Source of the DNA: Desulfobacterales bacterium
Lineage (GTDB): Bacteria > Desulfobacterota > Desulfobacteria > Desulfobacterales > Desulfosalsimonadaceae
DNA length: 64,000 nucleotides
Assembly (NCBI GenBank): GCA_007134875.1
Contig: SLJY01000109.1
Span: 6,555-70,554, forward strand
Direction of reading: 5' to 3'
The translations under genes were made by a program, and so were the position numbers. Of this stretch, positions 50,326-64,000 are shown in pieces. Below the pieces are notes generated by a model. It was not told the DNA's origin. It searched no databases and was given only the letters and a program-made list of their open reading frames with translations. Position 1 is the stretch's first letter, and the number at the start of each line of letters is the position of its first letter.

Positions 50326-51369
50326 ATGGTATTTTCCTCCGGTAAAAATGTTCACGCCGCGGCCGGTACAACCTCCCGGGGAGGAGATGACGGGGAAAGC
50401 GTCCTGGCGCCAGGCGACAATTATTTTCCCGTTTCGCCCGATACGCTCAACCCCGATTCCCTGACGGATTTCCAGGTGTATTTGCGGCGCGGCGGCCGCT
50501 TCGTGCTGTATACGAAAGAAAGGGAGCGCTTTTCCCATGAGCGCAAGGAAAGGCTCGTCGAAAGCGGGATCGATACGGTATATATTCCCTATCACCAGCA
50601 GTCTTCCTACGAAAACTATGTTTTCGACAATCTCGAGTACATCCTCCGGGATGAAACCATTCCCATCAAGGTCCGTTCGCGGGTGTTTCTGGATACCACA
50701 TCGAGACAGGTTGCCTCTGTTTTCGAAAAACGACTTCCCGCCCTGGGAGAGGACTCCCTCGAAAACATCCGGCACGTGGTATCCTCATCCCTTTCGTTTC
50801 TTTCGACGCCCGAGGCCATGGAAAACATCGGGAAGTTCGTTTCCCACGACTACCAGACTTTCACCCACAGCGTGCAGGTGTTTTCCTATGCCATGATGCT
50901 CATGCATGTTCTGGGGCGCGACACCGACGAGCGGCTGCTTATCGACGTGGGGATTGGGGCGATCCTCCACGATATCGGCAAGGTCCATGTTCCGACAAAG
51001 ATCCTGAACAAGCCCGGCAGGCTCAATGAAAAGGAGTGGGGGCACATCGTACTGCATCCGGTCCACGGCATGCGGATGTGTGCCAGCGTGGCGGTGTCGC
51101 AGACCAGTCTCAACTGCATCATGTTCCACCACGAAAAGTATAACGGCGCTGGGTACCCGTCGGGGATGAAGGAGAAGGAGATTCCGTTTTACGCGCGGCT
51201 CGTCGCCTGCTGCGACGTCTACGACGCGCTGACCTCGAAGCGGCCGTACGCCCCGGCCCGGGAGCCTTATGAAGCGCTGAAGATCATGGGCGGGGAGATG
51301 GACGGATCATTCGACCCGGAAGTTTTCACCGCCTTTATACGGATGCTGGGGGGCGGCATGAAGCCATGA
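50326..51369 (+). CDS. HD-GYP domain protein (c-di-GMP phosphodiesterase family)
   Basis: ORF 50182..51369, with the start moved to ATG 50326. ILHDIGKV ... HHEKYNGAGYPSGM (an HHExxDGxGYP variant with N in place of D). Confidence 0.8.
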   Translation: MVFSSGKNVHAAAGTTSRGGDDGESVLAPGDNYFPVSPDTLNPDSLTDFQVYLRRGGRFVLYTKERERFSHERKERLVESGIDTVYIPYHQQSSYENYVFDNLEYILRDETIPIKVRSRVFLDTTSRQVASVFEKRLPALGEDSLENIRHVVSSSLSFLSTPEAMENIGKFVSHDYQTFTHSVQVFSYAMMLMHVLGRDTDERLLIDVGIGAILHDIGKVHVPTKILNKPGRLNEKEWGHIVLHPVHGMRMCASVAVSQTSLNCIMFHHEKYNGAGYPSGMKEKEIPFYARLVACCDVYDALTSKRPYAPAREPYEALKIMGGEMDGSFDPEVFTAFIRMLGGGMKP

Positions 51370-52331
51370 CCGATACACGTTTTACGGAAACGGATAATAT
51401 AACGGGCGATATCGGCGCCGATTTTGACAAGTCCCGCCGTTCCTACCGGAAAATCATGCGCGATCTGTTGGTTCAGATCATTGAAAAGCAGGACTTCCCG
51501 GTTGCGGCCAGGCTCTTTTCCATGGCCTGCTTCACGTTTGAACTCGACTCCTTCGTTCACACCCACGGCTCGGCGTTGTGGGGGGAAAAATTCAACCTGG
51601 AAGTACACCGGGTGGCCGGAAACGGTTATGAAGCGCTGTGGTGCCAGGATTTCCCGGATACCGGCGCCATTGATCCGGTTCATCTCGAACGCCCCGTGGC
51701 CATGATCCTTTCTTTGTTTCAGGGAACGAAGGACCGGTGCCGGCCTGAATTTTTCCGGATGCTCGGGTCATCCATAGCCCTGCTTCAATCGGATGAACCG
51801 CCGGAGGACGCATCCGGTCCGGAACCATACATATCCTGCGCGCCGCCGCCGCATGCTTCCCGCCGGGAATCCTTTGCCCATTCCCCCGAAGCGCCCTCGA
51901 ATCCGCTTTCGCGCGGCGGGGGCCTTGCAGGCCTGTCGGATGAAAACCGGCGTGCGCTCACCATGGGGTTCTGCCGGCGCCGGAAGCGGCTTCACGAACG
52001 CCTGTTTACTGAACTTGAAACCGAAACCCGCCATTTCTGCGAGCGGATTCTCGGCTACAGGGATTTCGAGCGCTTCGAAAACCTGTTCGAATTCGTGCAG
52101 CGAATGGTGATCGACACGGCGCTCTTCCGGTTTTTCCTGATCAGTTCCCCCGCGATGGAAAAGATTGCGTCGAGCAAAACGGAGGCCACCGGAGCCGATT
52201 CCCGAATGGTCGCGGAGGATATTGCCGACACCATCGTGCGAGAGGAAAAAGCGGTCCTCGATCTGCAAAAAGTCCTGATCGAACAGCAGATGCGGAGCCT
52301 TGCCGAGACGACCCTGTTGATCCGCATCTGA
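51366..52331 (+). CDS. hypothetical protein, translationally coupled to the HD-GYP gene
   Basis: 321 aa with an ATGA overlap with the upstream stop. I recognise no motif in it. Confidence 0.55.
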   Translation: MTDTRFTETDNITGDIGADFDKSRRSYRKIMRDLLVQIIEKQDFPVAARLFSMACFTFELDSFVHTHGSALWGEKFNLEVHRVAGNGYEALWCQDFPDTGAIDPVHLERPVAMILSLFQGTKDRCRPEFFRMLGSSIALLQSDEPPEDASGPEPYISCAPPPHASRRESFAHSPEAPSNPLSRGGGLAGLSDENRRALTMGFCRRRKRLHERLFTELETETRHFCERILGYRDFERFENLFEFVQRMVIDTALFRFFLISSPAMEKIASSKTEATGADSRMVAEDIADTIVREEKAVLDLQKVLIEQQMRSLAETTLLIRI

Positions 52332-52404: not shown

Positions 52405-52974
52405 ATGACGATTGCACCCGAACAGAACCCCGAACCGATATTTCCCGAGGACCTGCTGGAAGCGGCCGACCCGTCGCCGGCCGCGGATGCGGCAAGGACA
52501 TGGTACGTGGCCCGTGTGAAAAGCCGGCGTGAAAAGGCCCTGGCATCCTTTTTGTACAGGCGCTCCATCGGCTATTACCTTCCCCTGATGAAACGCCGCC
52601 AATCCGGCAGCAGCCGTATCCGCTACAGCCTGGTACCCGTATTTCCGGGCTACGTCTTTGTATTCGCGGACATCGAGGAGCGCTACAGCGCGTTTACATC
52701 CAACCATGTAAGCCGGATGATCGAAGTCAAAGACCCGGAAACCCTCCTGCAGGAACTTGGCCGGATCCACCGGACCCTGTCCGCCGGGCAGCCGGTTTAC
52801 CCGGTGGAATTCGTGAGCGTCGGCCGCCGCGTCCGTGTCAAATCCGGCCCCATGAAGGACGTGGAAGGGATCGTTGTCCGCAAGGACAAGAAATTCCGGC
52901 TTGTTTTAAACGTCACCACCATCATGCAGTCCGTATCCATCCAGATCGACGCCGACATGGTGGAGCCGGTATAG
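52405..52974 (+). CDS. NusG paralog (NGN + KOW; RfaH/UpxY-like specialised antiterminator)
   Basis: 189 aa. NGN segment WYVARVKSRREKALASFL...LVPVFPGYVFV and KOW segment GRRVRVKSGPMKDVEGIVV. Confidence 0.75.
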   Translation: MTIAPEQNPEPIFPEDLLEAADPSPAADAARTWYVARVKSRREKALASFLYRRSIGYYLPLMKRRQSGSSRIRYSLVPVFPGYVFVFADIEERYSAFTSNHVSRMIEVKDPETLLQELGRIHRTLSAGQPVYPVEFVSVGRRVRVKSGPMKDVEGIVVRKDKKFRLVLNVTTIMQSVSIQIDADMVEPV

Positions 52975-52990
52975 GGGATCATCGGCGCGG

Positions 52991-53015
52991 GTATTGTACT
53001 TTTTACGAAGCCGTC
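52991..53015. repeat. solo MITE terminal repeat
   Basis: TATTGTACTTTTTACGAAGCCGTCA. Confidence 0.6.
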
Positions 53016-53064
53016 AACCTGAAACCTGAAATGCTCACCACACCCGATCAAGGAACAGCATGTG

Positions 53065-54777
53065 ATGGATGAAAAACGCTTTGCAGCCCATGGCGGCCCG
53101 CTTGTAAACCTGATGGTGGATGAACAACGGGCCGCGCTGTTAAAAGAGATTTCCCTCAACCTCCGGGATGTCATCTTAAGCGAACGCAATCTCTGCGACC
53201 TGGAGCTGCTGGCCATCGGCGCTTTTTCGCCCCTCGCCGGCTTCATGACCCGCCCGGACTACGAGTCGGTTCTGGACCGGATGCGCCTCCAGGACAACAC
53301 CCTCTGGCCGGTACCCGTGTGCCTGGATGTCTCCGGTAAAACGGCTAACCAGTTGGAAGCCGGACAGTCCGTGGCCCTGCGCGACGGGGAGGGATTCCTC
53401 CTTGCCGTTATGCATATCGGGGACATGTGGCCGGTGAACCGTGAAAAAGAAGCCGACATGATCTACGAAACCCGGGATCTGTCACATCCCGGGGTCCATT
53501 ACCTATATAAGACATCCGGCGATTATTACATCGGCGGCCAGTTGGAGGTGATCAACCTGCCCGTTCATTTCGATTTCAGGCAGATCCGCCTCCAACCCGA
53601 CGAGATTCGCGCCCAGTACCGGAAGCTTGGCTGGCAGCGGATCGTGGGGTTTCAGACCCGCAATCCCGTTTACCGGCCCCAGTTTGAAATGACCATCCAA
53701 GCCATGCGCCGCGCAAAGGCCAATCTGCTGATCCTGTCCGTGGTCGGCATGACCAAAAAGGATGACTTCGATCATTTCATCCGGGTCCGCTGCAATCGTA
53801 AAGTGGCGGAGCATTACCCGCCCGGCGCCGCCGTCCTGGCGCTTTTGCCCCTGGCGGTTCGCCTGTCCGGCCCCCGGGATGCGGTATTCGACGCCATTAT
53901 CGCGAAAAACTACGGCTGCACCCATTTTATAATCGGCCATGACCATGCATCCCCCGGCCCGGACAGCAGCGGCAACCTCTTTTATCCCGTTGCCCGCGCC
54001 AAGGAAATCGCCGGGTCCCTTGCCGATGAAATCGGCATCGACGTCGTCCTTTTCGAGGAGATGGTCTATCTCCCCTTCGAAGACGAATACCGCAGCGTCG
54101 ATCATGTTCCTGCCGGCGCCCAGACCATATCCCTTTCCGGATCGGATATCCGGCGGCGCATCCGCGACGGCAAAAACATTCCGGACTGGGCGGTCTTCCC
54201 GGAGGTGACCGCCGAGCTCCGCAAGGCCTATCCCCCGCCTTCCATTCAGGGGTTCACCGTGTTTCTGACGGGCCTTTCCGGGGCCGGCAAATCGACCATC
54301 GCCAAGGTGCTTTACTCCAAATTCCTGGAAATCGGCGACCGCCCCGTAACCCTGCTCGATGGCGACATCGTCCGCAGAAACCTGTCATCGGAGCTGTCCT
54401 TTTCCAGGGAGCACCGGGATTTGAACGTGCTGCGCATCGGGTTCGTGGCCAGTGAAATAACAAAGAACCGGGGGGTGGCCATCTGCGCGCCCATCGCCCC
54501 CTACGAGAGCAGCCGCCGAGAGGTCCGCTCCGTCATCGAGGCGTACGGCGGATTTGTCGAGGTCCACGTGGCCACCCCCATCGAAGAGTGCGAAAAGCGC
54601 GACCGCAAAGGCATGTACGCCAAGGCCCGCGCCGGGCTCATCACCGGCTTCACCGGCGTGGACGACCCCTACGAAGTGCCCCGCAATCCCGAGCTCAGCA
54701 TCGATACCACCGCCATCACCCCCGAGGAGGCGGCTCAGGAAGTTATGCTGTTTCTGAGCAAGCAGGGATTTAATTAA
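53065..54777 (+). CDS. ATP-sulfurylase-like domain fused to adenylylsulfate (APS) kinase
   Basis: ORF 53062..54777. The N-terminal domain is FQTRNPVYRPQFEM ... GCTHFIIGHDHASPG and the C-terminal domain is GLSGAGKSTIA, LLDGDIVRRNL, EVHVATPIEECEKRDRKGMYAKAR. Confidence 0.85.
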   Translation: MDEKRFAAHGGPLVNLMVDEQRAALLKEISLNLRDVILSERNLCDLELLAIGAFSPLAGFMTRPDYESVLDRMRLQDNTLWPVPVCLDVSGKTANQLEAGQSVALRDGEGFLLAVMHIGDMWPVNREKEADMIYETRDLSHPGVHYLYKTSGDYYIGGQLEVINLPVHFDFRQIRLQPDEIRAQYRKLGWQRIVGFQTRNPVYRPQFEMTIQAMRRAKANLLILSVVGMTKKDDFDHFIRVRCNRKVAEHYPPGAAVLALLPLAVRLSGPRDAVFDAIIAKNYGCTHFIIGHDHASPGPDSSGNLFYPVARAKEIAGSLADEIGIDVVLFEEMVYLPFEDEYRSVDHVPAGAQTISLSGSDIRRRIRDGKNIPDWAVFPEVTAELRKAYPPPSIQGFTVFLTGLSGAGKSTIAKVLYSKFLEIGDRPVTLLDGDIVRRNLSSELSFSREHRDLNVLRIGFVASEITKNRGVAICAPIAPYESSRREVRSVIEAYGGFVEVHVATPIEECEKRDRKGMYAKARAGLITGFTGVDDPYEVPRNPELSIDTTAITPEEAAQEVMLFLSKQGFN

Positions 54778-54896
54778 AGGGTCAATTAAGGGTCAGAGTG
54801 GCATTTCATCGTCAACGGAAATCGGGATGTCCGATAGCGTAGCGACTTTTTGCGGGTGCATCAGGGTTTGCCGAATATACACAAGGAATTTGAGGC

Positions 54897-54925
54897 TTGA
54901 CAAACGCACGGGCAGAAAGTAAAAT
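54897..54925 (+). promoter_or_regulatory. sigma-70-type promoter
   Basis: TTGACA(54897-54902)-N17-TAAAAT(54920-54925). Confidence 0.6.
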
Positions 54926-54940
54926 AAAATGTTTATACTG

Positions 54941-54960
54941 TTTTATAAGCGGCAGGTTAA
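54941..54960 (+). promoter_or_regulatory. shared early-leader element TTTTATAAGCGGCAGGTTAA (ops-like)
   Basis: Matches 63721-63740 at 17 of 20 positions. Both lie ~10-25 nt downstream of a sigma-70-type -10 box. The core GCGGCAG compares with the RfaH ops core GGCGGTAG. Confidence 0.4.
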
Positions 54961-55012
54961 TCGCGTTTTACGATTGTTATCATCGGAAAGGCATGTTACG
55001 CAAAAGGCCAAA

Positions 55013-55062
55013 AAAGCGGTTTTCGTTCAGGCGCTAATGCAGGGGGAATGGAACGGACGATG
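55013..55062 (+). promoter_or_regulatory. conserved leader cassette, copy d
   Basis: AAAGCGGTTTTCGTTCAGGCGCT ... GCAGGGGGAA ... ATG 55048/55060 of an 18-22-codon mini-ORF. Confidence 0.45.
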
Positions 55063-55112
55063 CATCATCTCATCACCATAGGACTGCCCGGTACGGCGGG
55101 GAAGGCTGCGGC

Positions 55113-55358
55113 ATGATTAATATCGGGTTGATCATTGCCGCCGGGGTTCTCGTCATCTATCTGGTATTGGGACCTATCGTCATTATGGGCATCTATTCCT
55201 TTCTGGACCGGATGGCCGAAAAGGCGGGAGAGCAGGAAAAAACGGATTCGACGCCCCGGGGCAAAAAAGATCCGGCGTTGTGGACTTCCAGGGATGTCCG
55301 GCGCTATATGCTAAAACACCGGCGGTTTCGTTCCGGCGATGGCGATTATAGATTATAA
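55113..55358 (+). CDS. small membrane protein (81 aa)
   Basis: N-terminal TM MINIGLIIAAGVLVIYLVLGPIVIMGIYSFL and a basic C-terminus. Its ATG overlaps the mini-ORF stop (ATGA). Confidence 0.45.
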   Translation: MINIGLIIAAGVLVIYLVLGPIVIMGIYSFLDRMAEKAGEQEKTDSTPRGKKDPALWTSRDVRRYMLKHRRFRSGDGDYRL

Positions 55359-55389
55359 TGGATGAGTGCAGCAGGTAAAAAAACCGCTT

Positions 55390-57066
55390 ATGCGAGATTT
55401 CTTAAAAAAGTGGAAAAAATATTTTGTATTTGTCGCCCTGCTGAGTTGTTTCATCAACATTCTTCAACTCACCTTCGCCTTTTACATGTTCACGATCTAT
55501 CGCAACATCGTTGCGAGTCATCACGAGCCGTCCCTGTATACAATTACCGTCATCGCGATCTACGCCCTTGTGAGCCTGGGCTTTTTCAACTACCTGCGCA
55601 CGCGCCTGCTCAACACGGCGGGCGTGGACCTCGACCAGTCCATGGGCTCGTCGGTATTCCGGCACGTAATCAGAATGTTTTCCATTCCCGCGGCCAACCG
55701 GTACACGCAGGGCGTCAGCGACCTGACCACGGTTCGCAATTATTTCAATAACCCGGGCCTCTATGCCCTGTTCGACGCCCCGTGGGCGCCGCTGTACCTG
55801 CTTTTGATCTATTTTTTCCATCCGGTTCTGGGGCTCGTGGCCACCGCCGGGGCGGTTTTGATTTTTATTCTGAGCCTCCTGCAGGACAGGCTGACACGCT
55901 CTCGTCTGGGCCGTGCCAATGCGAACTACGCGCGCAACCAGCGCATGGTCGATACCGCGCTCCGGAACGCCGAGACGATCAACGCCATGGGTATGGCTTC
56001 CGACATCAGCGGGCGCTGGGAGCGTTCCAACGAGTCGGTCATCGCGGACCAGACCATCGCCAGCCGTTACGCCGGCGCCCTGCAGAGCATGACCCGGCCT
56101 GTTCAGATCATGATGCAGGTGCTCATCTACGGCATTGGCGCGTATTACGCCATTACCGCCATGTTCGATGTCGGACTGATGGTGGCCTCGGCGATTATCA
56201 TGGGCCAGGCGGTCGGCCCCATTATGCGGGCCATGGGTGCATGGCGGTTCACCGTCCAGGCCGGAGCGGCCTACGCCCGACTCAACCGGTTTTTAGGCGC
56301 CATTTCCCGCCAGGGCGAAAAAATGACCCTTCCGCCGCCGGAAGGGCGCATCGAATCGCGCAACATCATGCTCAGAATCGGCGAGACCCGCCTGCTTGAA
56401 AATGTATCCTTTGCCCTTTCTCCCGGCGATATAATGGGTGTGGTCGGGCCTTCCGGGGCGGGAAAAAGCACCCTCTGCCGGATCGTTACGGGCGCATGGC
56501 CCGTTACGGCGGGTGAAATCCGTCTTGACGGCGTGGACTTGTTTTATTGGGATCAGGACGCCCTGGGCCGCCACGTTGGCTATCTTCCCCAGGAGGTGGA
56601 GCTTTTCCGCGCTTCGATAGCCGAAAATATCGCCCGCATGGGAGACGTGGACGAAGAAGCGGTGCGGGGGGCGGCTGAGGCTGCCGGTATCCGTCAGTGG
56701 ATCGAGTCGCTTCCGGACGGCATGCACGCAAAACTCTATGGTTCGGACGGCATCGCCCCGTCCGGCGGCCAGCGTCAGCGTATCGGGCTAGCACGCGCCC
56801 TTTACGGCGGCGCCCGGGTGCTGGTGCTTGACGAGCCCAATTCGAACCTGGATGCGGAAGGCGAAGCGGCCCTGACGGCCTTTCTGCGGAAAATCCGCGA
56901 AGGTCGTTTCGCAACCTGCATCATTGTAACGCACAAGCAGGAAATCCTCCTGTCGGCCGATAAAATCCTGGTCCTGGCCGACGGAAAGACCACTGCTTTC
57001 GGGCCGAGGGATAAGGTGTTCCGCCATCTTGCGGTCGCGCAATCTGCCGGCAGGAAAGCGGTGTAG
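55390..57066 (+). CDS. type I secretion ABC transporter (permease/ATPase, PrtD/HasD type, no C39 peptidase domain), paralog 1
   Basis: ORF 55366..57066 (GTG). ATG 55390 (MRDFLKKWKKYF) aligns with the N-terminus of paralog 2 (MREFLRKWMKFF). GPSGAGKSTL, SGGQRQRIGLARAL, VLVLDEPNSNLD. Confidence 0.85.
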   Translation: MRDFLKKWKKYFVFVALLSCFINILQLTFAFYMFTIYRNIVASHHEPSLYTITVIAIYALVSLGFFNYLRTRLLNTAGVDLDQSMGSSVFRHVIRMFSIPAANRYTQGVSDLTTVRNYFNNPGLYALFDAPWAPLYLLLIYFFHPVLGLVATAGAVLIFILSLLQDRLTRSRLGRANANYARNQRMVDTALRNAETINAMGMASDISGRWERSNESVIADQTIASRYAGALQSMTRPVQIMMQVLIYGIGAYYAITAMFDVGLMVASAIIMGQAVGPIMRAMGAWRFTVQAGAAYARLNRFLGAISRQGEKMTLPPPEGRIESRNIMLRIGETRLLENVSFALSPGDIMGVVGPSGAGKSTLCRIVTGAWPVTAGEIRLDGVDLFYWDQDALGRHVGYLPQEVELFRASIAENIARMGDVDEEAVRGAAEAAGIRQWIESLPDGMHAKLYGSDGIAPSGGQRQRIGLARALYGGARVLVLDEPNSNLDAEGEAALTAFLRKIREGRFATCIIVTHKQEILLSADKILVLADGKTTAFGPRDKVFRHLAVAQSAGRKAV

Positions 57067-57216
57067 ACCCATTGACCGATGCGGGCTGCACCGCTGTATT
57101 TGCAAATCTTATAAATAGTGCCCGGAGGAAAACCGGGGTTTTTCGTCAAGTCAAGAACCGTGAAAATTTTAACAGCAGGAATACTTCGCGTATTTTGAGG
57201 GTTAAAATTTTGATGC

Positions 57217-57381
57217 ACTCGTAAAGGTCGCGATCTGACGGCTTTGTAAAAAGTTCAGGATTAAGGCTTGCGCGATTTCGAAGAATGCAATGTACTTGGC
57301 GTACGTGCATGTTTACAAGGCGTAAGCCGCAAATTCTGAAAAATCGCGCGTAACGCAGATATTGGACTTTTTACGAAGCCG
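57217..57381. repeat. MITE-like repeat copy
   Basis: Nearly collinear with 11618-11761: CGGCTTTGTAAAAAGTTCAGGATTAAGGCTTGCGCGATTTCGAAGAATGCA ... GATATTGGACTTTTTACGAAGCCG. Confidence 0.85.
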
Positions 57382-57414
57382 TCAAATTTGAGCCGGACGC
57401 AAAAAAGGGCGGAA

Positions 57415-57462
57415 AAGACGGTTTTCGGTCAGGCACTAGTTAATCAAGGATGGTCCATTTTG
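57415..57462 (+). promoter_or_regulatory. conserved leader cassette, copy e
   Basis: AAGACGGTTTTCGGTCAGGCACT ... AATCAAGGA, ending at the proposed TTG start 57460 of the TolC-like gene. Confidence 0.45.
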
Positions 57463-58869
57463 GTACGAAAACGATTGTTTGGCAGAGCACTGCTGATTTT
57501 TGCCGGTTGCTGCCTGTGGCTGTTTGTCGCACTACCCGTAGGAGCTGAAACGGCTGCCGAAGACGGCAACGATGCGGGCGTCGAGGCCTACACCCTGGAG
57601 CAGGCCATCGATCGCGCTCTTTCGGTCAATCCCCGCATTCAGGGGGCCCGCTCGGAGATCGACAAGGCCGATTCCGATATTGCGCTGCGCCGTGGTGAGT
57701 ATTTCCCCACGCTCAGCGCCCAATCATACATCGAGCGGATCGATAACATCCGGGCGCGGGGGCAGGAAGACCCGGATTATCTCGACCAGCAGATCATGGG
57801 CGTTACCTTTCGCCTGTCCCAACCCCTGTTTGCCGGTATGACCATATTTAATTCCCACCAGAAGTCGATTCTGGACAGGGCCCGCATCGATGCCTGGAGC
57901 CGCCAGCAGAATCATGACCTGGCCCTGGAGGTCCGATTGCATTTTCTGGAATTGTACAAGGCGCGCGAGGATTCCAAAAGTTTCCGCGACGCGGTGCGGC
58001 GGCTGGAAACCGGCGTGGAGGCGGCGGAGGCTTTTCACGAGCGCCGCCTGATGCCGTATACGGAGGTGCTCCAGGCATACGTGGATCTCGCCGAGGCCCG
58101 GCAGCAGCTCAGCCAGGCCGAAAACCTCGTGGAGACCACCAAGGTCCGGCTCAACATCCTGCTGGGTTTTTCGGTGCACCGGGATATTTCCTACCTGGGC
58201 GATCTTGAGCGGGGCGATCCCCTTTCCGAGTCCTTCCGGGAGCTGCTGGAATACGCCTACCGGCACCGGCCTGAGCTGGAAGTGGCCCAAAAGAGCGTTG
58301 AAATGGCCGAAAAGGACCGGAATATCGCTCGCGGCCGCTACCTGCCGGAGATCAATGCCACGGTGGACTACCACATCCGGGATGTCGACTACGATGAGCG
58401 GGGGGAGCAATTCGGTCAGACGATTGATCGCGACCGCCGGAACTACTACTGGACCGCCGGTATCCGCCTCAACTGGGAGTTCGGTTTAGGCGGGCAGCAG
58501 ATCCACCGGCATTCCAAAGCGAACCACGAGCTTCAGCGCCTCCGTCATAACCGGGAGCAGGCCCGCAACGAGGTAACCGGTGAAGTGCGGACCTACTTCA
58601 TGAACATCCGGGAGGCCGCCGACCGCATACGGACCATGGAGGCGGCGATTGAACACGCCCGGCAGGGCTACAGCCGGGCGGAAAGCCGCTTCGATCTCCG
58701 CATGGGAACCATATCGGAGCTTCTGGATGCCCAGGCGCGCCTGAGCCGCACCGAGGCCGGCTACAACGAGGCGGTGGCGGACTACTTATCCAACCGGGCA
58801 AGGCTCTACCATGCCATGGGCCGCGATAAGCGGCTGCTGGCGGAGGCAACGGGGTCTGAAAACGATTGA
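57460..58869 (+). CDS. TolC-family outer membrane efflux protein
   Basis: ORF 57388..58869 (its TTG lies inside the MITE). TTG 57460 is preferred for its AAGGA SD and the signal peptide VRKRLFGRALLIFAGCCLWLFVALPVGA. Two TolC-type repeats. Confidence 0.8.
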   Translation: MVRKRLFGRALLIFAGCCLWLFVALPVGAETAAEDGNDAGVEAYTLEQAIDRALSVNPRIQGARSEIDKADSDIALRRGEYFPTLSAQSYIERIDNIRARGQEDPDYLDQQIMGVTFRLSQPLFAGMTIFNSHQKSILDRARIDAWSRQQNHDLALEVRLHFLELYKAREDSKSFRDAVRRLETGVEAAEAFHERRLMPYTEVLQAYVDLAEARQQLSQAENLVETTKVRLNILLGFSVHRDISYLGDLERGDPLSESFRELLEYAYRHRPELEVAQKSVEMAEKDRNIARGRYLPEINATVDYHIRDVDYDERGEQFGQTIDRDRRNYYWTAGIRLNWEFGLGGQQIHRHSKANHELQRLRHNREQARNEVTGEVRTYFMNIREAADRIRTMEAAIEHARQGYSRAESRFDLRMGTISELLDAQARLSRTEAGYNEAVADYLSNRARLYHAMGRDKRLLAEATGSEND

Positions 58870-58958
58870 ACGGCCGTTTTCGCCAAGGGTCCGCATAAAC
58901 GTTCATACTACCCAATTCATCCCCGGAACCGATTGTTCGGGGATCAGCAGGAGTCAAT

Positions 58959-60644
58959 ATGCGCGAGTTTCTGAGAAAGTGGATGAAGTTTTTCTGGATA
59001 GCGGGTTTTTTCAGCCTGTTTATCAACCTGCTTTACCTGACGTTTCCCATCTACATGCTGGCTGTCTACGAGCGCGTGCTATACAGCTATTCTATGTCGA
59101 CGCTCACCACGCTGACCATCATGGCGGCCACGGCGCTCATTGTGCTGGGCGGCCTTGACTTTCTCAGGTCCCGGCTGCTGATCCACGTCGGCGTTGATAT
59201 GGACAATACGCTTTCCCGTCCGGTATTTTCCGAAATGCTCAACGACCGCTGCCGCATCGGCGGGCTGGGATACACCGAGGGGCTCAGGGACGTCAATACC
59301 CTGCGCAATTTTTTCTCCGGCAATGCCGTATTCGCGATCTTCGATGCCCCCTGGACGCCGCTTTATATCCTGGTGATGTTTTTCATGCACCCCGTGCTTG
59401 GATATTTCGCCATTGCCGCGGCGGTGATTCTTTTTCTTCTGGCGCTTTTCCAGGAGATCCTGACCCGCCGTAAGATGGATCGGTCCGGCGCCATGGAATC
59501 CGTATCGCACCAGTTCGCCAACACCTGCATGCGAAATGCCGAAGTGATCAGCGCGATGGGCATGACGCCCGGGGTTATCAACCGATGGCGGGAAACCGGC
59601 GACGAGGCCCTTGCGCTGCGCAACGAGGCTAATTCCGTGTCCGGGGCCATGAGCGCCGCCACCACGAGTTTTCGCTCCGCCATGCAGGTTCTGGTTTTCG
59701 GATTGGGTGCTTACCTGGTTTTGCAGAACCAGTCCACCCCGGGCATCATTATCGCCGCTTCCATCATTATGCGGCAGGCCCTCGGCCCGGTGGAAAAGAT
59801 TATCGGAAGCTGGCGTCAGACGGTGGAAGCCCGCGCGGCATACCGCCGGCTGGACGAGCTGATTCAGGCCGCGCCCGCAGCCGAAGAAATGGAGCTGCCC
59901 GAACCTGCCGGCCGCCTGGAAGCCGAGGGCGCCTCGCTATCCCTGGAAGGCAAGCCCATCCTCCAGAACATTGCATTTGGCATCGACGCCGGCTCGATGT
60001 TGGGCTTGATCGGTCCTTCCGGTGCGGGAAAGACAACGCTCTGCCGGCTGATCCTGGGACTGTGGCCTGCCATGGGCGGCAAGATACGGCTAGACAGCTA
60101 CGATGTCCATGCTTGGAATCAGCAGGAGCTGGGCGCCTATATTGGCTATCTGCCACAGGATCCGGAGCTTTTTCCCGGCACCGTCAGCGAAAACATCGCC
60201 CGGATGGGGGATGTGGACCCTGAAAAGGTCGTAGCCGCCGCGCGGACCGCCGGAATCCATGAGATGGTGCTCAAGCTGCCCAAAGGCTATGATACCTGGG
60301 TGGGTGACGACGGCGTGCGTTTGTCCGGCGGCCAGCGGCAGCGGGTCGCACTGGCCCGGGCGCTTTACGGCGACCCGAGGCTCGTGGTTCTGGACGAACC
60401 CAACTCCAACCTGGACGATGCCGGCGAAAAAGCCCTCATGGAGGCCCTGGAGCGGCTGCGCGAGAAAAAGACGACTGTTGTGATTGTCACCCACAAGCCG
60501 GCATTGCTTTCCGGCGTGGACAATATCCTGATGCTCAAGGACGGCCGTGTCGCGCATTTCGGGCCGAGAGACGAGGTTTTCAGGAAGCTGGCCTCGCAGC
60601 AGCAGCAGGAGAGAGGGCACAATCCCGGGGCAGGCGGGCGGTGA
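58959..60644 (+). CDS. type I secretion ABC transporter (permease/ATPase), paralog 2
   Basis: 561 aa with GPSGAGKTTL, LSGGQRQRVALARAL, LVVLDEPNSNLD, VVIVTHK. Confidence 0.88.
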   Translation: MREFLRKWMKFFWIAGFFSLFINLLYLTFPIYMLAVYERVLYSYSMSTLTTLTIMAATALIVLGGLDFLRSRLLIHVGVDMDNTLSRPVFSEMLNDRCRIGGLGYTEGLRDVNTLRNFFSGNAVFAIFDAPWTPLYILVMFFMHPVLGYFAIAAAVILFLLALFQEILTRRKMDRSGAMESVSHQFANTCMRNAEVISAMGMTPGVINRWRETGDEALALRNEANSVSGAMSAATTSFRSAMQVLVFGLGAYLVLQNQSTPGIIIAASIIMRQALGPVEKIIGSWRQTVEARAAYRRLDELIQAAPAAEEMELPEPAGRLEAEGASLSLEGKPILQNIAFGIDAGSMLGLIGPSGAGKTTLCRLILGLWPAMGGKIRLDSYDVHAWNQQELGAYIGYLPQDPELFPGTVSENIARMGDVDPEKVVAAARTAGIHEMVLKLPKGYDTWVGDDGVRLSGGQRQRVALARALYGDPRLVVLDEPNSNLDDAGEKALMEALERLREKKTTVVIVTHKPALLSGVDNILMLKDGRVAHFGPRDEVFRKLASQQQQERGHNPGAGGR

Positions 60645-60713
60645 TGACCGTTTGAGCGTCTGCTGCAGGAAGCATTCAAAAGAATCAATATTGTAACGCA
60701 AGGTGGAACCATT

Positions 60714-62045
60714 ATGGCAGAAACAGAGAAACCGGCGCAGGAAAAAAGCCTGCGGTCCAACCCGAAGCCGCTTATCATTGCCGGCTTCGCAGTGATTCTG
60801 GTGTTTTTCGGGGGTATAGCGGCCTGGTCGGCCTTTCTTCCCTTTTCCGGGGCGGTGATTGCAACAGGCGTGGTCAAGGTCTCCCATGAGCGTCAAACCG
60901 TCCAGCACCTCGAAGGCGGGATCGTTGAAGACATTTTCGTCCGGGAAGGGGATTCCGTTGATTCCGGCGATGTGCTCATGCGCCTTCGACGCCCGGAAAC
61001 CGATGCCCAGGTATCCATGATCCGCAGCCAGATCCGGGCCCGAACGGCCCAGGCGGCCCGTCTCCGGGCGGAAAGCCGGATGGCGGACGAAATCCAGTGG
61101 CCGGAGTCGATTCTTTCCCGTCAGGATGATGATCCCGAAGTAGCCGACGTGATGGAAATGGAGGGCGAAATCTTTACATCCCGGCGCAATACCCTCAATG
61201 GCCGGATTTCCCTGCACGAATCACAGGTTGCCCAGTTGCAGGAGCAGGTAATGGGAATGCAGGAGGAGTATGAGGCCCAGAAGGAAATCGTGGAAACCCT
61301 GGAAGAGGAAATCGAGGCCAAGCAGTCCCTCTACGAGGCGGACCATATCGACCGGACCGAAATTCTGGAGTTGACCCGCCGCCTGGCCGAGCACCGAGGC
61401 CGGGCCGGACGGCTCCGCCAGGACATCGCGGAGGCCCGCCAGAAAAAGGAGGAGCTGCGCCTCCAGATCGTAAACCTCCGGGATGACTACGTGGAAGAGG
61501 CTTTTACCCAATTGGGGCGCGTGCAGGACGATATTTACGAGCTCAACGACAGGCTGCTTCCCCAGCTGGACGCCCAGAGCCGGCTGACGCTCCGTGCGCC
61601 CATTGCCGGCGAGGTCATCAACATGAAAGTCCACTCCCGAACTACCGGCGTCATCCAGCCGGGGCAGGAAATTCTGGATATCGTTCCCAGGGAGGCCGAG
61701 CTGATCGTGGAGGCCCGTGTTCAGCCCGACGATATTACCAATATCATGAAGGGCCAGTCCGTCCGCGTGCAGATAACGCCCTTCAACCGGCGGACCACGC
61801 CGCCGGTCAACGGGGTGATCGAGCATGTTTCCGGCGACCATGTTACCCGCGAGACGGCCCGCGGCGAGGAGAAATATTACGTCACCCACATCCGCATCGA
61901 CGAGGCGGAACTCAATGAAGCGGGTATTTATCTTTCTCCCGGCATGCCGGCCGTAAGCTACATCGAAACCGAGGAGCGCACGATACTGGGGTATCTCCTT
62001 GATCCGATCATCGAGATGATGGATCGTTCCCTCCGGGAGCCCTAA
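60714..62045 (+). CDS. HlyD-family type I secretion membrane fusion protein
   Basis: 443 aa with an N-terminal TM, GVVKVSHERQTVQHLEGGIV, a long coiled coil, and LRAPIAGEVINMKVH. Confidence 0.88.
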   Translation: MAETEKPAQEKSLRSNPKPLIIAGFAVILVFFGGIAAWSAFLPFSGAVIATGVVKVSHERQTVQHLEGGIVEDIFVREGDSVDSGDVLMRLRRPETDAQVSMIRSQIRARTAQAARLRAESRMADEIQWPESILSRQDDDPEVADVMEMEGEIFTSRRNTLNGRISLHESQVAQLQEQVMGMQEEYEAQKEIVETLEEEIEAKQSLYEADHIDRTEILELTRRLAEHRGRAGRLRQDIAEARQKKEELRLQIVNLRDDYVEEAFTQLGRVQDDIYELNDRLLPQLDAQSRLTLRAPIAGEVINMKVHSRTTGVIQPGQEILDIVPREAELIVEARVQPDDITNIMKGQSVRVQITPFNRRTTPPVNGVIEHVSGDHVTRETARGEEKYYVTHIRIDEAELNEAGIYLSPGMPAVSYIETEERTILGYLLDPIIEMMDRSLREP

Positions 62046-63588
62046 GCGCGGGGTTCCTTTCGATCGCCCGTCGCAAATGCTCGATCATGGTCAGGGTGTG
62101 GGGGGTAACGGGCGCCCTGGAAAGGTCCTTGATCAGCAATATTTCCCCCAACTCGCGTTCCCCGGCCAGCAAAGGGAGCCGGAGCCGGAGCAGGGGGCGG
62201 CAGCCGTCGGCGTTTTTTCCCGCCTGATGGGCGCCTGCCCCGGGTTCCGTCGTCCGGAACCCGTTTCGCGACCATGCCTGCCGGATTCCGCCGGTTTCGC
62301 CGGTGCTTCCGGCAATGGCTTTTCCGGCGGACTTCCCGTCGCCTGTGCCGATGCGGATCTCGGCAAAATCCATATCCATCTCTTCAAGCGCGCGGCAGAT
62401 GTTTTCCCACATCGCCTGCATATCGGGAGAACCGGTCACCGCCACCTGGAGGTTCAAAAAACGCCTGCGGCGCGGCGCAACCCCGGTGACAAAGGAAAAA
62501 TCTCCCAGCCAGCTCCGGAATTTTTCACCGTCGATGTAGCTGAAATATCCCATCACCTTCAAAAAGGCAAAAATCAGTACGCCGATGCCCAGCAGGAGCA
62601 CGAACAGGCCGAATCGTTCGCTTTTTACGTGCATCAGCGCCAGCGAATAGATCCCGATGGCCAGCGTCAGGCAATAGAGAAGCAGCAGCGCCTTTCTGCT
62701 GGAAAAGCCTATTTTGAGAAGGTGGTGGTGGATATGCCCGCAGTCTGCTTCCATGGGGTTTCTTCCCAAAACGACCCGTCGGATGGGCGAAAAGACGGCC
62801 TCGAACACGGGCAGGCTCATGGCCAGAAGCGGAATGAGCAGCGCCGCGCCCACCTGTCCTTTAACGGACCCCATAATCGAAAAAGCCGCGATGCAGTAGC
62901 CCAGAAAATAGCTGCCGCTGTCGCCCAGAAACAATTTGCCGCCGTTTTCCCGGAAGTTGAAAGGGAGAAAGCCGGCGATTGATCCCGCCAAAAGGATAAA
63001 AAGTCCGGCAAGGGGTAGTTGCCCGGTGGCTGTGAGAAAGACGCCCATTACCACGCAGGCGAACAGCGTGATGCCCGAGGCCAGGCCGTCGAGTCCGTCG
63101 GCCAGGTTCACGGCGTTGACCAGCAGCAGAAACCAGAAAACGGTAAGCGGCAGGTTGATCCACGGATTGGCGGAGATGTCGATATCGAAGGGAAGGGCGA
63201 TGAATGCCCCGATCACAATCCCGCCGGCGTATGCGGATAGCGCCGCAATAACCTGCAGGGCCAGCTTGGGCCACGGCCCCAGCCCCCACACATCGTCTAC
63301 GAACCCGGTGACGAAGCAGGTGAAGGCGCCTGCCAGGAAAAACAAAAGCGCGCCGTCTTCGGTAAGCGGGCTCCGGATATCGGGCCAGAACAGGGCGGTG
63401 GCGGTTATCGCCGCCAGAAAGGAAAGAAAAATCCCAAGCCCGCCGATTCGCACGGCGGTTTCCAGATGAAGCTTTCTGCTGCCCGGAGCGTCGGTGGCGC
63501 CCAGCCGCATCCCTATGCGCCGGACGGCCGGGCAGAGGACGAGCGAAACGGTAAAGGCGATGAAAAATGGTATCAGCAGTATACTCAT
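62008..63588 (-). CDS. WecA/MraY-family polyprenyl-phosphate sugar-1-phosphate transferase with ~190-aa C-terminal extension
   Basis: 526 aa. The N-terminal ~330 aa are polytopic with DAPGSRKLHLETAVRIGGLGIF and NAVNLADGLDGLA. The C-terminal soluble domain is unrecognised. Converges on and overlaps the HlyD gene by 38 nt. Confidence 0.8.
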   Translation of the reverse strand: MSILLIPFFIAFTVSLVLCPAVRRIGMRLGATDAPGSRKLHLETAVRIGGLGIFLSFLAAITATALFWPDIRSPLTEDGALLFFLAGAFTCFVTGFVDDVWGLGPWPKLALQVIAALSAYAGGIVIGAFIALPFDIDISANPWINLPLTVFWFLLLVNAVNLADGLDGLASGITLFACVVMGVFLTATGQLPLAGLFILLAGSIAGFLPFNFRENGGKLFLGDSGSYFLGYCIAAFSIMGSVKGQVGAALLIPLLAMSLPVFEAVFSPIRRVVLGRNPMEADCGHIHHHLLKIGFSSRKALLLLYCLTLAIGIYSLALMHVKSERFGLFVLLLGIGVLIFAFLKVMGYFSYIDGEKFRSWLGDFSFVTGVAPRRRRFLNLQVAVTGSPDMQAMWENICRALEEMDMDFAEIRIGTGDGKSAGKAIAGSTGETGGIRQAWSRNGFRTTEPGAGAHQAGKNADGCRPLLRLRLPLLAGERELGEILLIKDLSRAPVTPHTLTMIEHLRRAIERNPALRAPGGNDPSSR

Positions 63589-63682
63589 ACTCTATCCGGC
63601 AGTGCGTTTCCCGCACGGTTGAGTTGTTGGCGCGTTTTGCCTTCCTGCCGTTTATCCGATGGAAAGCCGGTTGAATTGTTGC

Positions 63683-63711
63683 TTGATTTCAGGGCCCGGA
63701 ACGTTTATATA
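63683..63711 (+). promoter_or_regulatory. sigma-70-type promoter
   Basis: TTGATT-N17-TATATA, followed by the shared leader element at 63721. Confidence 0.45.
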
Positions 63712-63720
63712 TGATCCTTT

Positions 63721-63740
63721 ATTTATAAGCGGAAGGTAAA
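63721..63740 (+). promoter_or_regulatory. shared early-leader element ATTTATAAGCGGAAGGTAAA (ops-like)
   Basis: Matches 54941-54960 at 17 of 20 positions, in the same position relative to a -10 box. Confidence 0.4.
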
Positions 63741-63960
63741 ATTCAAGAAAATATATATTAAACAGGATCGTTTTGCAATGCCGCTGCAGTGTATTTTTTT
63801 TCGGGGGCCGGATGGCGATGCACGCCCGGTGCATGGCGGGTTTTCGGAAGGACGGGCTGCCGCTGGCTTTCGGCCCGGTTCATCCGCCCGGCGCTTCGAT
63901 GCGCCGGAGCAAAAGCCCCATGAGCCCGAACATAAACCGGGGCCGGAACATAAAACGGCT

Positions 63961-64000
63961 ATGCGGGTTCTCCACGTATTCAAGACCAATTACCTGCAGC
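63961..64000 (+). CDS. possible start of a glycosyltransferase gene running off the window
   Basis: ATG 63961 gives MRVLHVFKTNYLQ, resembling the N-termini of GT-B glycosyltransferases (M[RK][IV]LH[VF]xKT). The frame is open from 63778 to the window end. Only 13 codons are visible. Confidence 0.3.
   Translation, partial: MRVLHVFKTNYLQ

What the first reader, a model, noticed from the sequence alone, without database searches (positions are those of the whole stretch)
53065..54777. Sulfurylase-like/APS-kinase fusion whose sulfurylase active-site motifs are degenerate
The canonical ATP-sulfurylase motifs are QxRNPxHxxH and GRDHAG. Here they read QTRNPVYRPQ (both His lost) and GHDHAS (Arg lost). 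The C-terminal APS-kinase module keeps its P-loop GLSGAGKST, LDGD and the KGMYAKAR region. The protein therefore probably only phosphorylates APS, with the N-terminal domain structural or regulatory. Degenerate partner domains are well known in fungal ATP sulfurylases, and I recall a bacterial APS kinase with an inactive sulfurylase-like domain. In a sulfate reducer APS is abundant from the dissimilatory Sat. Such an enzyme would tap the respiratory APS pool to make PAPS for sulfation.
Basis: partly seen in the sequence, partly recalled or inferred. Interest (0 to 1): 0.6.

Follow-up and report, generated by a model that had tools for sequence, protein, structure and literature searches.

The report
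APS kinase with dead sulfurylase-like domain
This gene is annotated by homology as a two-step PAPS synthase, but its first (ATP-sulfurylase) half has lost key catalytic residues, so it most likely only phosphorylates APS made by the cell's separate respiratory sulfurylase; this enzyme type is already known, and here it proves to be the standard form across a whole order of sulfate reducers.

Summary
The ORF at 53062/53065-54777 (+) encodes a 570/571-aa protein with PUA-like, ATP-sulfurylase-like and APS-kinase domains. Aligned to active enzymes, QTRNPMHRAH reads QTRNPVYRPQ and GRDHAG reads GHDHAS. Both His and the Arg are lost. The Ser is normal, because active Aquifex has GRDHAS. The kinase motifs are intact.

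These changes are a lineage trait. About 96 of 151 genomes sampled from the order (Desulfobacterales) carry the fusion. Nearly all close homologues lack the second His, and most lack the Arg. The sulfurylase-like half stays under purifying selection (dN/dS 0.02-0.12) and keeps most APS-contacting residues.

The genome also holds a canonical Sat and dsrAB. No CysH or CysD was found. aprBA is missing from this 89%-complete assembly but is present in congeners.

In all 13 other genomes of the family the gene sits in a cysQ-fusion-ugd cassette. Here it has moved behind a NusG paralogue, next to a type I secretion and glycan locus.

The best reading is an APS kinase that makes PAPS for sulfation, like Thiobacillus denitrificans Tbd_0210 and Entamoeba APSK. 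No sulfotransferase was found in this genome. First readers of this scan noted the same motif losses on other genomes. I class it as a new member of a known kind, of modest interest.

The parts
53062..54777 (+). Gene for the sulfurylase-like/APS-kinase fusion (P0001, 571 aa from GTG 53062; 570 aa from ATG 53065, the form on record as P0002)
53086..53556 (+). PUA-like N-terminal domain (residues 9-165)
   Evidence: Pfam PF14306, E 2.3e-50
53581..54225 (+). ATP-sulfurylase-like Rossmann domain (residues 174-388), predicted to be non-catalytic
   Evidence: Pfam PF01747, E 6.5e-68; AF2 model pLDDT 92 with best match 1i2d at TM 0.91
53653..53682 (+). RNP/HxxH motif reading QTRNPVYRPQ: QTRN kept, both His replaced (Y204, Q207)
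   Evidence: clade statistics
53935..53955 (+). GRD loop reading GHDHASP: Arg293 replaced by His; Gly, His and Ala kept
54247..54705 (+). APS kinase domain (residues 396-548)
   Evidence: Pfam PF01583, E 7.6e-56; TIGR00455 at 168 bits, over its cut-off
54271..54297 (+). Kinase P-loop GLSGAGKST
   Evidence: G404, G409, K410, S411 and T412 are invariant in A1
52405..52974 (+). NusG/RfaH-like paralogue 88 nt upstream, with no terminator-like site in between; it may be co-transcribed
   Evidence: Pfam NusG plus KOW; not found in 3 congeners
54897..54925 (+). Sigma-70-like promoter (11 of 12 matches) downstream of the gene, ahead of the type I secretion genes, so those probably form a separate transcription unit

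Best explanation
The gene encodes an APS kinase whose N-terminal PUA plus ATP-sulfurylase-like half no longer makes APS.

Shown by sequence: the two histidines of the HxxH motif, and the Arg of the GRD loop are replaced by Tyr, Gln and His. In active enzymes the HxxH histidines hold the pyrophosphate end of ATP. The kinase half keeps all its motifs.

Inferred pathway: APS is made by the cell's separate, canonical Sat. The fusion phosphorylates it to PAPS. PAPS feeds sulfotransferases, probably ones acting on glycans. The resulting PAP is recycled by CysQ.

Inferred role of the dead half: it is kept by selection as a scaffold and activator of the kinase, as shown experimentally for the Entamoeba enzyme and proposed for the T. 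denitrificans enzyme. Because it keeps most APS-contacting residues, it may also still bind APS.
For: Motif losses, from a gap-free alignment to 1i2d and 2gks.

Mutational precedent: H425A or H428A alone abolishes sulfurylase but not kinase activity in human PAPSS1 (PMC11697783).

The losses are a lineage trait.
- Of 121 homologues at 68-100% identity, only 4 keep the second His and 78% have His in place of Arg.
- Other catalytic columns drift as well: R200P in 9 and N201H/Q in 18.

The kinase is intact and the most constrained part.
- The P-loop, DGD, R438, F447 and R452 are invariant.
- Identity within the clade is 85% for the kinase against 63% for the sulfurylase-like domain.
- The sulfurylase/kinase identity ratio is 0.97 in canonical fusions, 0.82 in this clade and 0.43 in the T. 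denitrificans-like clade.

The sulfurylase-like half is not decaying. Its dN/dS is 0.02-0.12. The AF2 model has pLDDT 92 and matches 1i2d at TM 0.91.

A separate APS source exists: a second Sat with QLRNPMHRSH and GRDHAG.

PAPS use is not assimilatory. No PAPS_reduct (CysH or CysD) hit passes the cut-off. This is the only APS kinase in the genome.

PAPS cycle context:
- cysQ-fusion-ugd is present in 13 of 13 other family genomes.
- cysQ lies next to the gene in 15 further loci of named Desulfobacterales.
- By my count from the per-genome tables, Sulfotransfer_3 is present in 66 of 96 fusion-bearing genomes and 20 of 55 fusion-lacking genomes of the order.

Role of the dead domain: deleting the Entamoeba sulfurylase-like domain lowers kinase kcat about 100-fold and destabilises the protein (bioRxiv 10.64898/2026.04.02.716029).
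Against: No assay exists for any member of this clade.

NCBIfam's equivalog model for the bifunctional enzyme scores 819 bits against a cut-off of 669. On overall sequence alone the protein therefore looks bifunctional.

The domain is much less degenerate than in T. denitrificans. QTRN, GxxKxxD, LPLAxRxxGPR, the DHA of the GRD loop and the SGxxxR arginine are all kept. Gln and His replacements could still hydrogen-bond phosphates, so residual or altered activity is not excluded.

No sulfotransferase was detected in this 89%-complete genome with six Pfam families.

aprBA was not found in this assembly, so a respiratory APS pool is inferred from congeners.

Genome co-occurrence counts are not phylogenetically independent.
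Confidence: 0.72

Rival explanations
1. It is a true bifunctional PAPS synthase, as annotated. The variant motif (Y/H-x-x-Q, G-H-D-H-A) still supports adenylyl transfer, perhaps more slowly.
For: NF004040 scores 819 bits and TIGR00339 371 bits, both over their cut-offs. All APS-contacting residues and the SGxxxR arginine are kept. The fold is modelled with high confidence and is closest to active fungal and Aquifex enzymes. Four close homologues keep HxxH and GRD.
Against: Both His are lost in this protein. Single His-to-Ala changes abolish activity in human PAPSS1. The catalytic columns drift across the clade (R200P, N201H/Q, H204Y/Q, position 207 Q/L/M/G), which is not expected for an active site in use. 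The sulfurylase-like half evolves about twice as fast as the kinase, unlike in canonical fusions. Nearly every genome with the fusion also carries a separate Sat.
Confidence: 0.1
2. The sulfurylase-like half is an APS-binding sensor or capture domain. It would be the mirror image of fungal ATP sulfurylase, whose dead kinase domain binds PAPS allosterically. It would gate or feed the kinase according to the respiratory APS level. This reading extends the best explanation and does not compete with it.
For: Residues that contact APS in solved structures (Gln, Thr, Arg and Asn of QTRN; Gly, His and Ala of the GRD loop; the GxxKxxD lid; GPR) are kept at 85-100% in the clade. Two of the four residues compared for pyrophosphate binding, His204 and His207, are replaced in this protein (His207 in nearly all of the clade); Asn201 and the SGxxxR arginine are kept. 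The GRD-loop Arg is replaced too (contacts from PMC3779200). In the T. denitrificans-like clade the same APS-contact positions are lost. Strong purifying selection acts on the domain.
Against: QTRN conservation (0.85-0.99) is no higher than the domain's median column conservation of 0.88. Whole genera (Desulfobacula, Desulfobacterium) have QTRQ or QTRH. Both experimentally studied relatives (Entamoeba, T. denitrificans) are described as not binding substrate.
Confidence: 0.25
3. PAPS made by this enzyme feeds assimilatory sulfate reduction through a PAPS reductase, not sulfation.
For: PAPS-dependent assimilation is the textbook use of CysC in many bacteria (established knowledge).
Against: No PAPS_reduct family member passes the cut-off in the genome. 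The organism has dsrAB and its lineage has aprA, so sulfide is available from respiration. The conserved partners are cysQ and a nucleotide-sugar dehydrogenase, not cysH or cysIJ.
Confidence: 0.04

Closest known systems
Thiobacillus denitrificans two-domain APS kinase Tbd_0210 (PDB 3cr8; Gay, Segel and Fisher 2009, cited)
   Same: Same architecture of sulfurylase-like N-terminal half plus active-type APS kinase. The second His of HxxH is also Gln (HRAQ). The structural match is TM 0.78 normalised by the model and 0.89 by the chain. The host also has a separate ATP sulfurylase (title of Gay et al., Arch Biochem Biophys 2009, cited).
   Different: The T. denitrificans domain is far more degenerate: QARQ for QTRN, GGEHQP for GRDHAG, and the LPLAMR..GPR segment lost. 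The sulfurylase-like region matches 3cr8 at only E 6e-22, against 1e-54 for active fungal enzymes. In the full-length tree the window's clade (support 99) lies outside the 57-row T. denitrificans-like clade. Whether the two share one ancestral loss is unresolved.
Entamoeba histolytica APS kinase (PDB 23vk/23vl; bioRxiv 10.64898/2026.04.02.716029; PMC6715247)
   Same: A non-catalytic sulfurylase-like domain is fused N-terminally to an active kinase. That domain is needed for kinase stability and full kcat, which gives a tested role for such a domain.
   Different: The Entamoeba domain lacks the substrate-binding loop, has a short linker that covers the pocket, and shares only 14-23% identity with active domains. 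The window's domain keeps loop, linker and pocket residues and is about 39% identical to canonical domains.
Aquifex aeolicus bifunctional ATP sulfurylase/APS kinase (PDB 2gks)
   Same: Same domain order and length, 45-46% identity, E 1.5e-157. GRDHAS also has the Ser.
   Different: Aquifex keeps QTRNPMHRVH and the Arg of GRDHAS and has an enzymatically active kinase domain. The window protein has lost both His and the Arg.
Penicillium chrysogenum ATP sulfurylase (PDB 1i2d/1m8p)
   Same: Best sequence and structure match: E 1.8e-165, TM 0.91. One of the two domains is a non-catalytic relic with a regulatory role.
   Different: The roles are reversed. In the fungus the sulfurylase is active and the kinase-like domain (GYMNSGKDA, with no functional P-loop) binds PAPS as an allosteric inhibitor. 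Here the kinase is intact and the sulfurylase is degenerate.

Membership tests
Bifunctional sulfate adenylyltransferase/adenylylsulfate kinase (NCBIfam NF004040; Aquifex type) | PUA + ATP-sulfurylase + APS-kinase architecture, scoring over the family cut-off | tested here: met
   NF004040 scores 819 bits against a cut-off of 669. The three Pfam domains are in the expected order.
Bifunctional sulfate adenylyltransferase/adenylylsulfate kinase (NCBIfam NF004040; Aquifex type) | Intact QxRNxxHxxH motif (both histidines) | tested here: not met
   The motif reads QTRNPVYRPQ; His204 is Tyr and His207 is Gln.
Bifunctional sulfate adenylyltransferase/adenylylsulfate kinase (NCBIfam NF004040; Aquifex type) | Arg of the GRDHA loop | tested here: not met
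   The loop reads GHDHASP.
Bifunctional sulfate adenylyltransferase/adenylylsulfate kinase (NCBIfam NF004040; Aquifex type) | ATP sulfurylase activity | not testable with these tools
   This needs an enzyme assay.
Two-domain APS kinase with inactive sulfurylase-like domain (T. denitrificans Tbd_0210 / Entamoeba APSK kind) | Sulfurylase-like fold fused N-terminally to an APS kinase with intact P-loop, DGD and lid motifs | tested here: met
Two-domain APS kinase with inactive sulfurylase-like domain (T. denitrificans Tbd_0210 / Entamoeba APSK kind) | Loss of sulfurylase catalytic residues | tested here: met
   His204, His207 and Arg293 are lost. The loss is milder than in 3cr8, which also lost QTRN, GRD and the adenine loop.
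Two-domain APS kinase with inactive sulfurylase-like domain (T. denitrificans Tbd_0210 / Entamoeba APSK kind) | Common descent with the T. denitrificans-type clade | tested here: inconclusive
   In the full-length FastTree the window's clade lies outside the T. denitrificans-like clade. On the kinase domain, AU tests reject neither grouping: p 0.86 with the degenerate forms and 0.92 with the canonical forms.
Two-domain APS kinase with inactive sulfurylase-like domain (T. denitrificans Tbd_0210 / Entamoeba APSK kind) | Kinase activity present and sulfurylase activity absent; oligomer held together by the dead domain | not testable with these tools
   This needs assays and solution or structural work. 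Two copies exceed the size limit of the complex predictor.
Fungal ATP sulfurylase with allosteric APS-kinase-like domain | Active sulfurylase motifs together with a C-terminal domain that lacks a functional P-loop | tested here: not met
   The reverse holds here: the sulfurylase motifs are degenerate and the P-loop GLSGAGKST is intact.

The most novel reading that the evidence does not exclude
The sulfurylase-like half has lost chemistry but not ligand binding. It would still close over APS and act as an APS sensor or capture site. It would let the kinase draw on the respiratory APS pool only when that pool is high, or shield the kinase from APS substrate inhibition. That would be the exact mirror of fungal ATP sulfurylase, where a dead kinase domain senses PAPS. 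It would also represent an intermediate stage between a bifunctional enzyme and the fully decayed T. denitrificans type, conserved across an order of sulfate reducers.
Probability: 0.25. Interest if true: 0.55.

Novelty: new member of a known kind. Interest (0 to 1): 0.35.

Why it matters
Public annotation (NCBIfam equivalog NF004040 and the names carried by the homologues) calls this protein and its many Desulfobacterales orthologues [quoted passage not shown]. If the sulfurylase half is dead, that name is wrong for a gene present in roughly two thirds of the genomes sampled from a major order of marine sulfate reducers.

Metabolic models that give these organisms a second sulfate-activating enzyme would then also be wrong.

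The conserved cysQ-fusion-ugd cassette, together with frequent sulfotransferases, points to sulfated glycans or other sulfated products. This is a little-studied capability of sulfate reducers, fed directly from the respiratory intermediate APS.

The clade is also a useful natural intermediate for studying how one half of a bifunctional enzyme turns into a scaffold or regulator. The enzyme type itself is already documented, so a specialist would not be greatly surprised.

Tried and rejected
1. Shifted catalytic residues. The alignments to 1i2d, 1m8p, 2gks and the yeast enzymes are gap-free through both motifs, so there is no alternative His or Arg.

2. Conservation of the window's own gene context (NusG paralogue, small membrane protein, ABC, OEP, ABC, HlyD). 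None of it is found next to the orthologue in 46 related loci. The NusG paralogue was not found in three congeners and one family member. This context is therefore specific to this genome and cannot be used as conserved evidence of function.

3. Sulfotransferases in the own genome. Pfam Sulfotransfer_1, _2, _3, _4, _5 and Stf0 gave no hit. For three of these families the control genomes did not ring either, so those blanks say little.

4. aprA and aprB in the own genome. Not found. I attribute this to assembly gaps, because sat and dsrA both sit at contig ends and 4 of 6 congeners have aprA.

5. A 290-aa ORF after cysQ on contig C37, considered as a possible hidden sulfotransferase. It has no Pfam match, and its translation looks like the antisense of a minus-strand gene, so I dropped it.

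6. One loss or two. A kinase-domain tree with AU tests could not decide whether the clade belongs with the T. denitrificans-like forms or with the canonical forms.

7. Flanking repeats that might explain the relocation. Only short chance-level repeats were found.

8. The full text of Gay et al. 2009 (PMC2756168) is not held. What I say about 3cr8 rests on its sequence as printed and on how other papers cite it.

9. Homo-oligomer prediction was not attempted, because two copies exceed the 1000-residue limit.
Full report
**1. What is there**

The + strand carries one ORF from 53062 (GTG) or 53065 (ATG) to 54777. An AGGA lies 10 nt before the ATG. The database copy, P0002, is the 570-aa ATG form.

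Pfam places a PUA-like domain at residues 9-165, an ATP-sulfurylase domain at 174-388 and an APS-kinase domain at 396-548. NCBIfam's equivalog for the bifunctional enzyme (NF004040) scores 819 bits against a cut-off of 669.

The best solved relatives are P. chrysogenum ATP sulfurylase (1i2d, E 1.8e-165), the Aquifex bifunctional enzyme (2gks, E 1.5e-157) and the T. denitrificans hexameric APS kinase (3cr8, E 4.7e-150).

**2. The motifs**

In gap-free alignments QTRNPMHRAH pairs with QTRNPVYRPQ and GRDHAGPG with GHDHASPG (coordinates checked). His204, His207 and Arg293 are therefore replaced, and no shifted substitute is available.

The Ser is not part of the degeneracy, because active Aquifex has GRDHASPG.

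The kinase half has GLSGAGKST, LDGD and KGMYAKAR. In an alignment with canonical relatives the P-loop, D433-G-D435, R438, F447 and R452 are invariant.

**3. A lineage trait, not a lesion**

Among 121 homologues of 68-100% identity, the commonest forms are QTRNP[IL]HRPQ with GHDHASP. Only 4 keep the second His, 78% have His for Arg, and the first His is Tyr in the 11 nearest. Other catalytic columns drift as well: R200P in 9 and N201H/Q in 18.

Named relatives are all Desulfobacterales: Desulfobacula, Desulfobacterium, Desulfosudis, Desulfonema, Desulfocicer and Desulfosalsimonadaceae. All of them lack the second His.

In a sample of 151 genomes of the order, I count 96 with a full-length orthologue. 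Nearly all of those also have a separate Sat of about 430 aa.

**4. Selection**

- The sulfurylase-like half has dN/dS of 0.02-0.12 in unsaturated pairs, so it is maintained by selection.
- It evolves about twice as fast as the kinase. Identity within the clade is 63% against 85%.
- The sulfurylase/kinase identity ratio is 0.97 in canonical fusions, 0.82 in this clade and 0.43 in the strongly degenerate clade.
- The canonical set was defined by its motifs, so its motif columns are 100% by construction.

**5. What is kept**

Contacts in solved structures are described in PMC3779200.
- Gln and Arg of QxRN and the Ala of GRDHA bind the sulfate.
- Thr, Arg and Asn bind the alpha-phosphate.
- Gly, the backbone of Arg, and His of GRDH bind the ribose.
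- The GxxKxxD loop closes over APS.
- HxxH and the Arg of SGTxxR bind pyrophosphate.

The window protein keeps Q198, T199, R200, N201, G292, H295, A296, GMTKKDD, LPLAVRLSGPR and SGSDIR. These positions are 85-100% conserved in the clade. On the pyrophosphate side both HxxH histidines are lost while the SGSDIR arginine stays; the other loss is the Arg side chain of the GRD loop.

By contrast 3cr8 reads QARQPMHRAQ, GGEHQPD and LLPAPPPEASGR. However, QTRN is no more conserved than the domain's median column. Retained APS binding is therefore possible but not demonstrated.

**6. Structure**

An AlphaFold2 model built on 42 sequences has mean pLDDT 92.2 and pTM 0.84. It matches 1i2d at TM 0.91, 2gks at 0.82-0.90 and 3cr8 at 0.78-0.89. 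The fold is intact.

**7. Relation to known dead-domain kinases**

In the library clustered at 50% identity, degenerate forms outnumber canonical ones among fusion-length hits: 72 against 38, counting only those with an intact kinase P-loop. This kind of protein is therefore common.

A full-length tree puts the window's clade (support 99) outside a 57-row strongly degenerate clade (support 97). One member of that clade, P0122, has 3cr8 as its best solved match.

The kinase domain of P0001 is nevertheless closer to the degenerate forms (66% identity) than to the canonical ones (50%). T. denitrificans shares the His-to-Gln change at the second His. AU tests on the kinase domain reject neither grouping. 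Whether there was one loss or several is left open.

**8. The rest of the pathway in this genome**

The assembly is 2.88 Mb in 231 contigs and is 89% complete.

- A second Sat, cut by a contig end, has QLRNPMHRSH and GRDHAG.
- dsrA and dsrB are present.
- aprA and aprB were not found. aprA is present in 4 of 6 congeners and in every other genus sampled, so I read the gap as an assembly gap.
- The fusion is the only APS kinase.
- No CysH or CysD passes the cut-off.
- No sulfotransferase was found with six Pfam families.

**9. Genomic partners**

In all 13 other genomes of the family, including a congener, the order is cysQ-fusion-ugd, that is an Inositol_P family PAP phosphatase followed by the fusion and a UDP-glucose/GDP-mannose dehydrogenase. 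The same neighbours recur in further Desulfobacterales loci, with GDP-mannose dehydratase and sugar nucleotidyltransferases nearby.

Sulfotransfer_3 genes occur in 86 of 151 genomes of the order. By my count they are present in 66 of 96 genomes with the fusion and 20 of 55 without it. Related genomes are not independent samples, so this is only suggestive.

**10. What is particular to this window**

The ancestral cassette on contig C37 still has cysQ and ugd. About 7 kb holding NfeD and a sigma-54 two-component system lies where the fusion should be.

The fusion's identity to the 13 family orthologues ranks broadly as cysQ and ugd do, highest to the congener, so it is the relocated orthologue and not an import.

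It now lies 88 nt after a NusG/RfaH-like paralogue, with no terminator-like site between them. A strong sigma-70-like promoter follows it (54897-54925). After that come two ABC exporters, an outer-membrane factor and a HlyD protein, then a WecA-like transferase. Beyond the window lie glycosyltransferases, Wzm/Wzt and a methyltransferase.

The NusG paralogue is not found in three congeners, so this is an accessory locus. The placement suits a PAPS supply for a surface or secreted product. That is inference only.

**11. Mechanism and verdict**

Single His-to-Ala changes in the equivalent HNGH motif abolish sulfurylase but not kinase activity in human PAPSS1 (PMC11697783). In Entamoeba APSK the dead domain stabilises the kinase and raises its kcat about 100-fold. 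In T. denitrificans it is thought to hold the hexamer together.

I conclude, at about 0.7 confidence, that this protein is an APS kinase fed by the separate Sat, and that the sulfurylase-like half serves as scaffold and activator. At about 0.25 I hold that this half also still binds APS.

First readers of this scan have noted the same motif losses on other genomes. The enzyme type is known. What this analysis adds is that the form is order-wide, only mildly degenerate, linked to cysQ and ugd, and annotated as bifunctional in public databases.

Noticed in passing
window 52405-64000 and G000:C37:27198-36309 (L055): The fusion gene has left its family-wide cysQ-fusion-ugd cassette. On C37, cysQ and ugd remain, separated by about 7 kb with NfeD and a sigma-54 two-component system. 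The fusion now sits behind a NusG paralogue that is not found in three congeners. Its identity ranks broadly parallel those of cysQ and ugd, so it is a relocated orthologue.
   Followed up: yes
window 55113-62045: A type I secretion set with two paralogous ABC exporters (566 and 561 aa, no C39 peptidase domain), an outer-membrane factor between them, a HlyD protein, and an 81-aa membrane protein at the head. It is preceded by a strong sigma-70-like promoter at 54897-54925. No substrate gene was identified.
   Followed up: partly
window 62008-64000 and L006 (G000:C33:68000-79581): A WecA-like GT4 gene on the minus strand, followed by GT1, GT1, Wzm, Wzt with a C-terminal carbohydrate-binding domain, a DUF4214-methyltransferase and a double GT1. 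Together they look like an ABC-transporter-dependent glycan locus with a possible methyl chain terminator. It runs to the contig end.
   Followed up: partly
G000:C47:1-930 (L001), G000:C13:4-2016 (L007/L008): sat and dsrA are both cut by contig ends, and aprBA is missing from the assembly although congeners have aprA. The core respiratory genes seem to be assembly break points in this MAG.
   Followed up: partly
L009:5041-8975, L010:231-4094, G000:C37:23259-27146: An 875-900-aa HdrA-like protein with a C-terminal MvhD/FlpD domain and a 406-aa Fer4 plus CCG (HdrC/B-like) protein lie directly upstream of cysQ in the nearest relatives and in this genome. Any link to the PAPS genes is unknown.
   Followed up: no
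P0069, P0081, P0089, P0121 (homologues): A small subclade inside the degenerate clade keeps HxxH and GRDHAG but has Met for the sulfate-binding Gln (MTRNPIHRPH). This is either a retained ancestral state or a reversion.
   Followed up: no
window 51366-52331: A 321-aa ORF with no Pfam match lies between an HD-GYP-type gene and the NusG paralogue.
   Followed up: no
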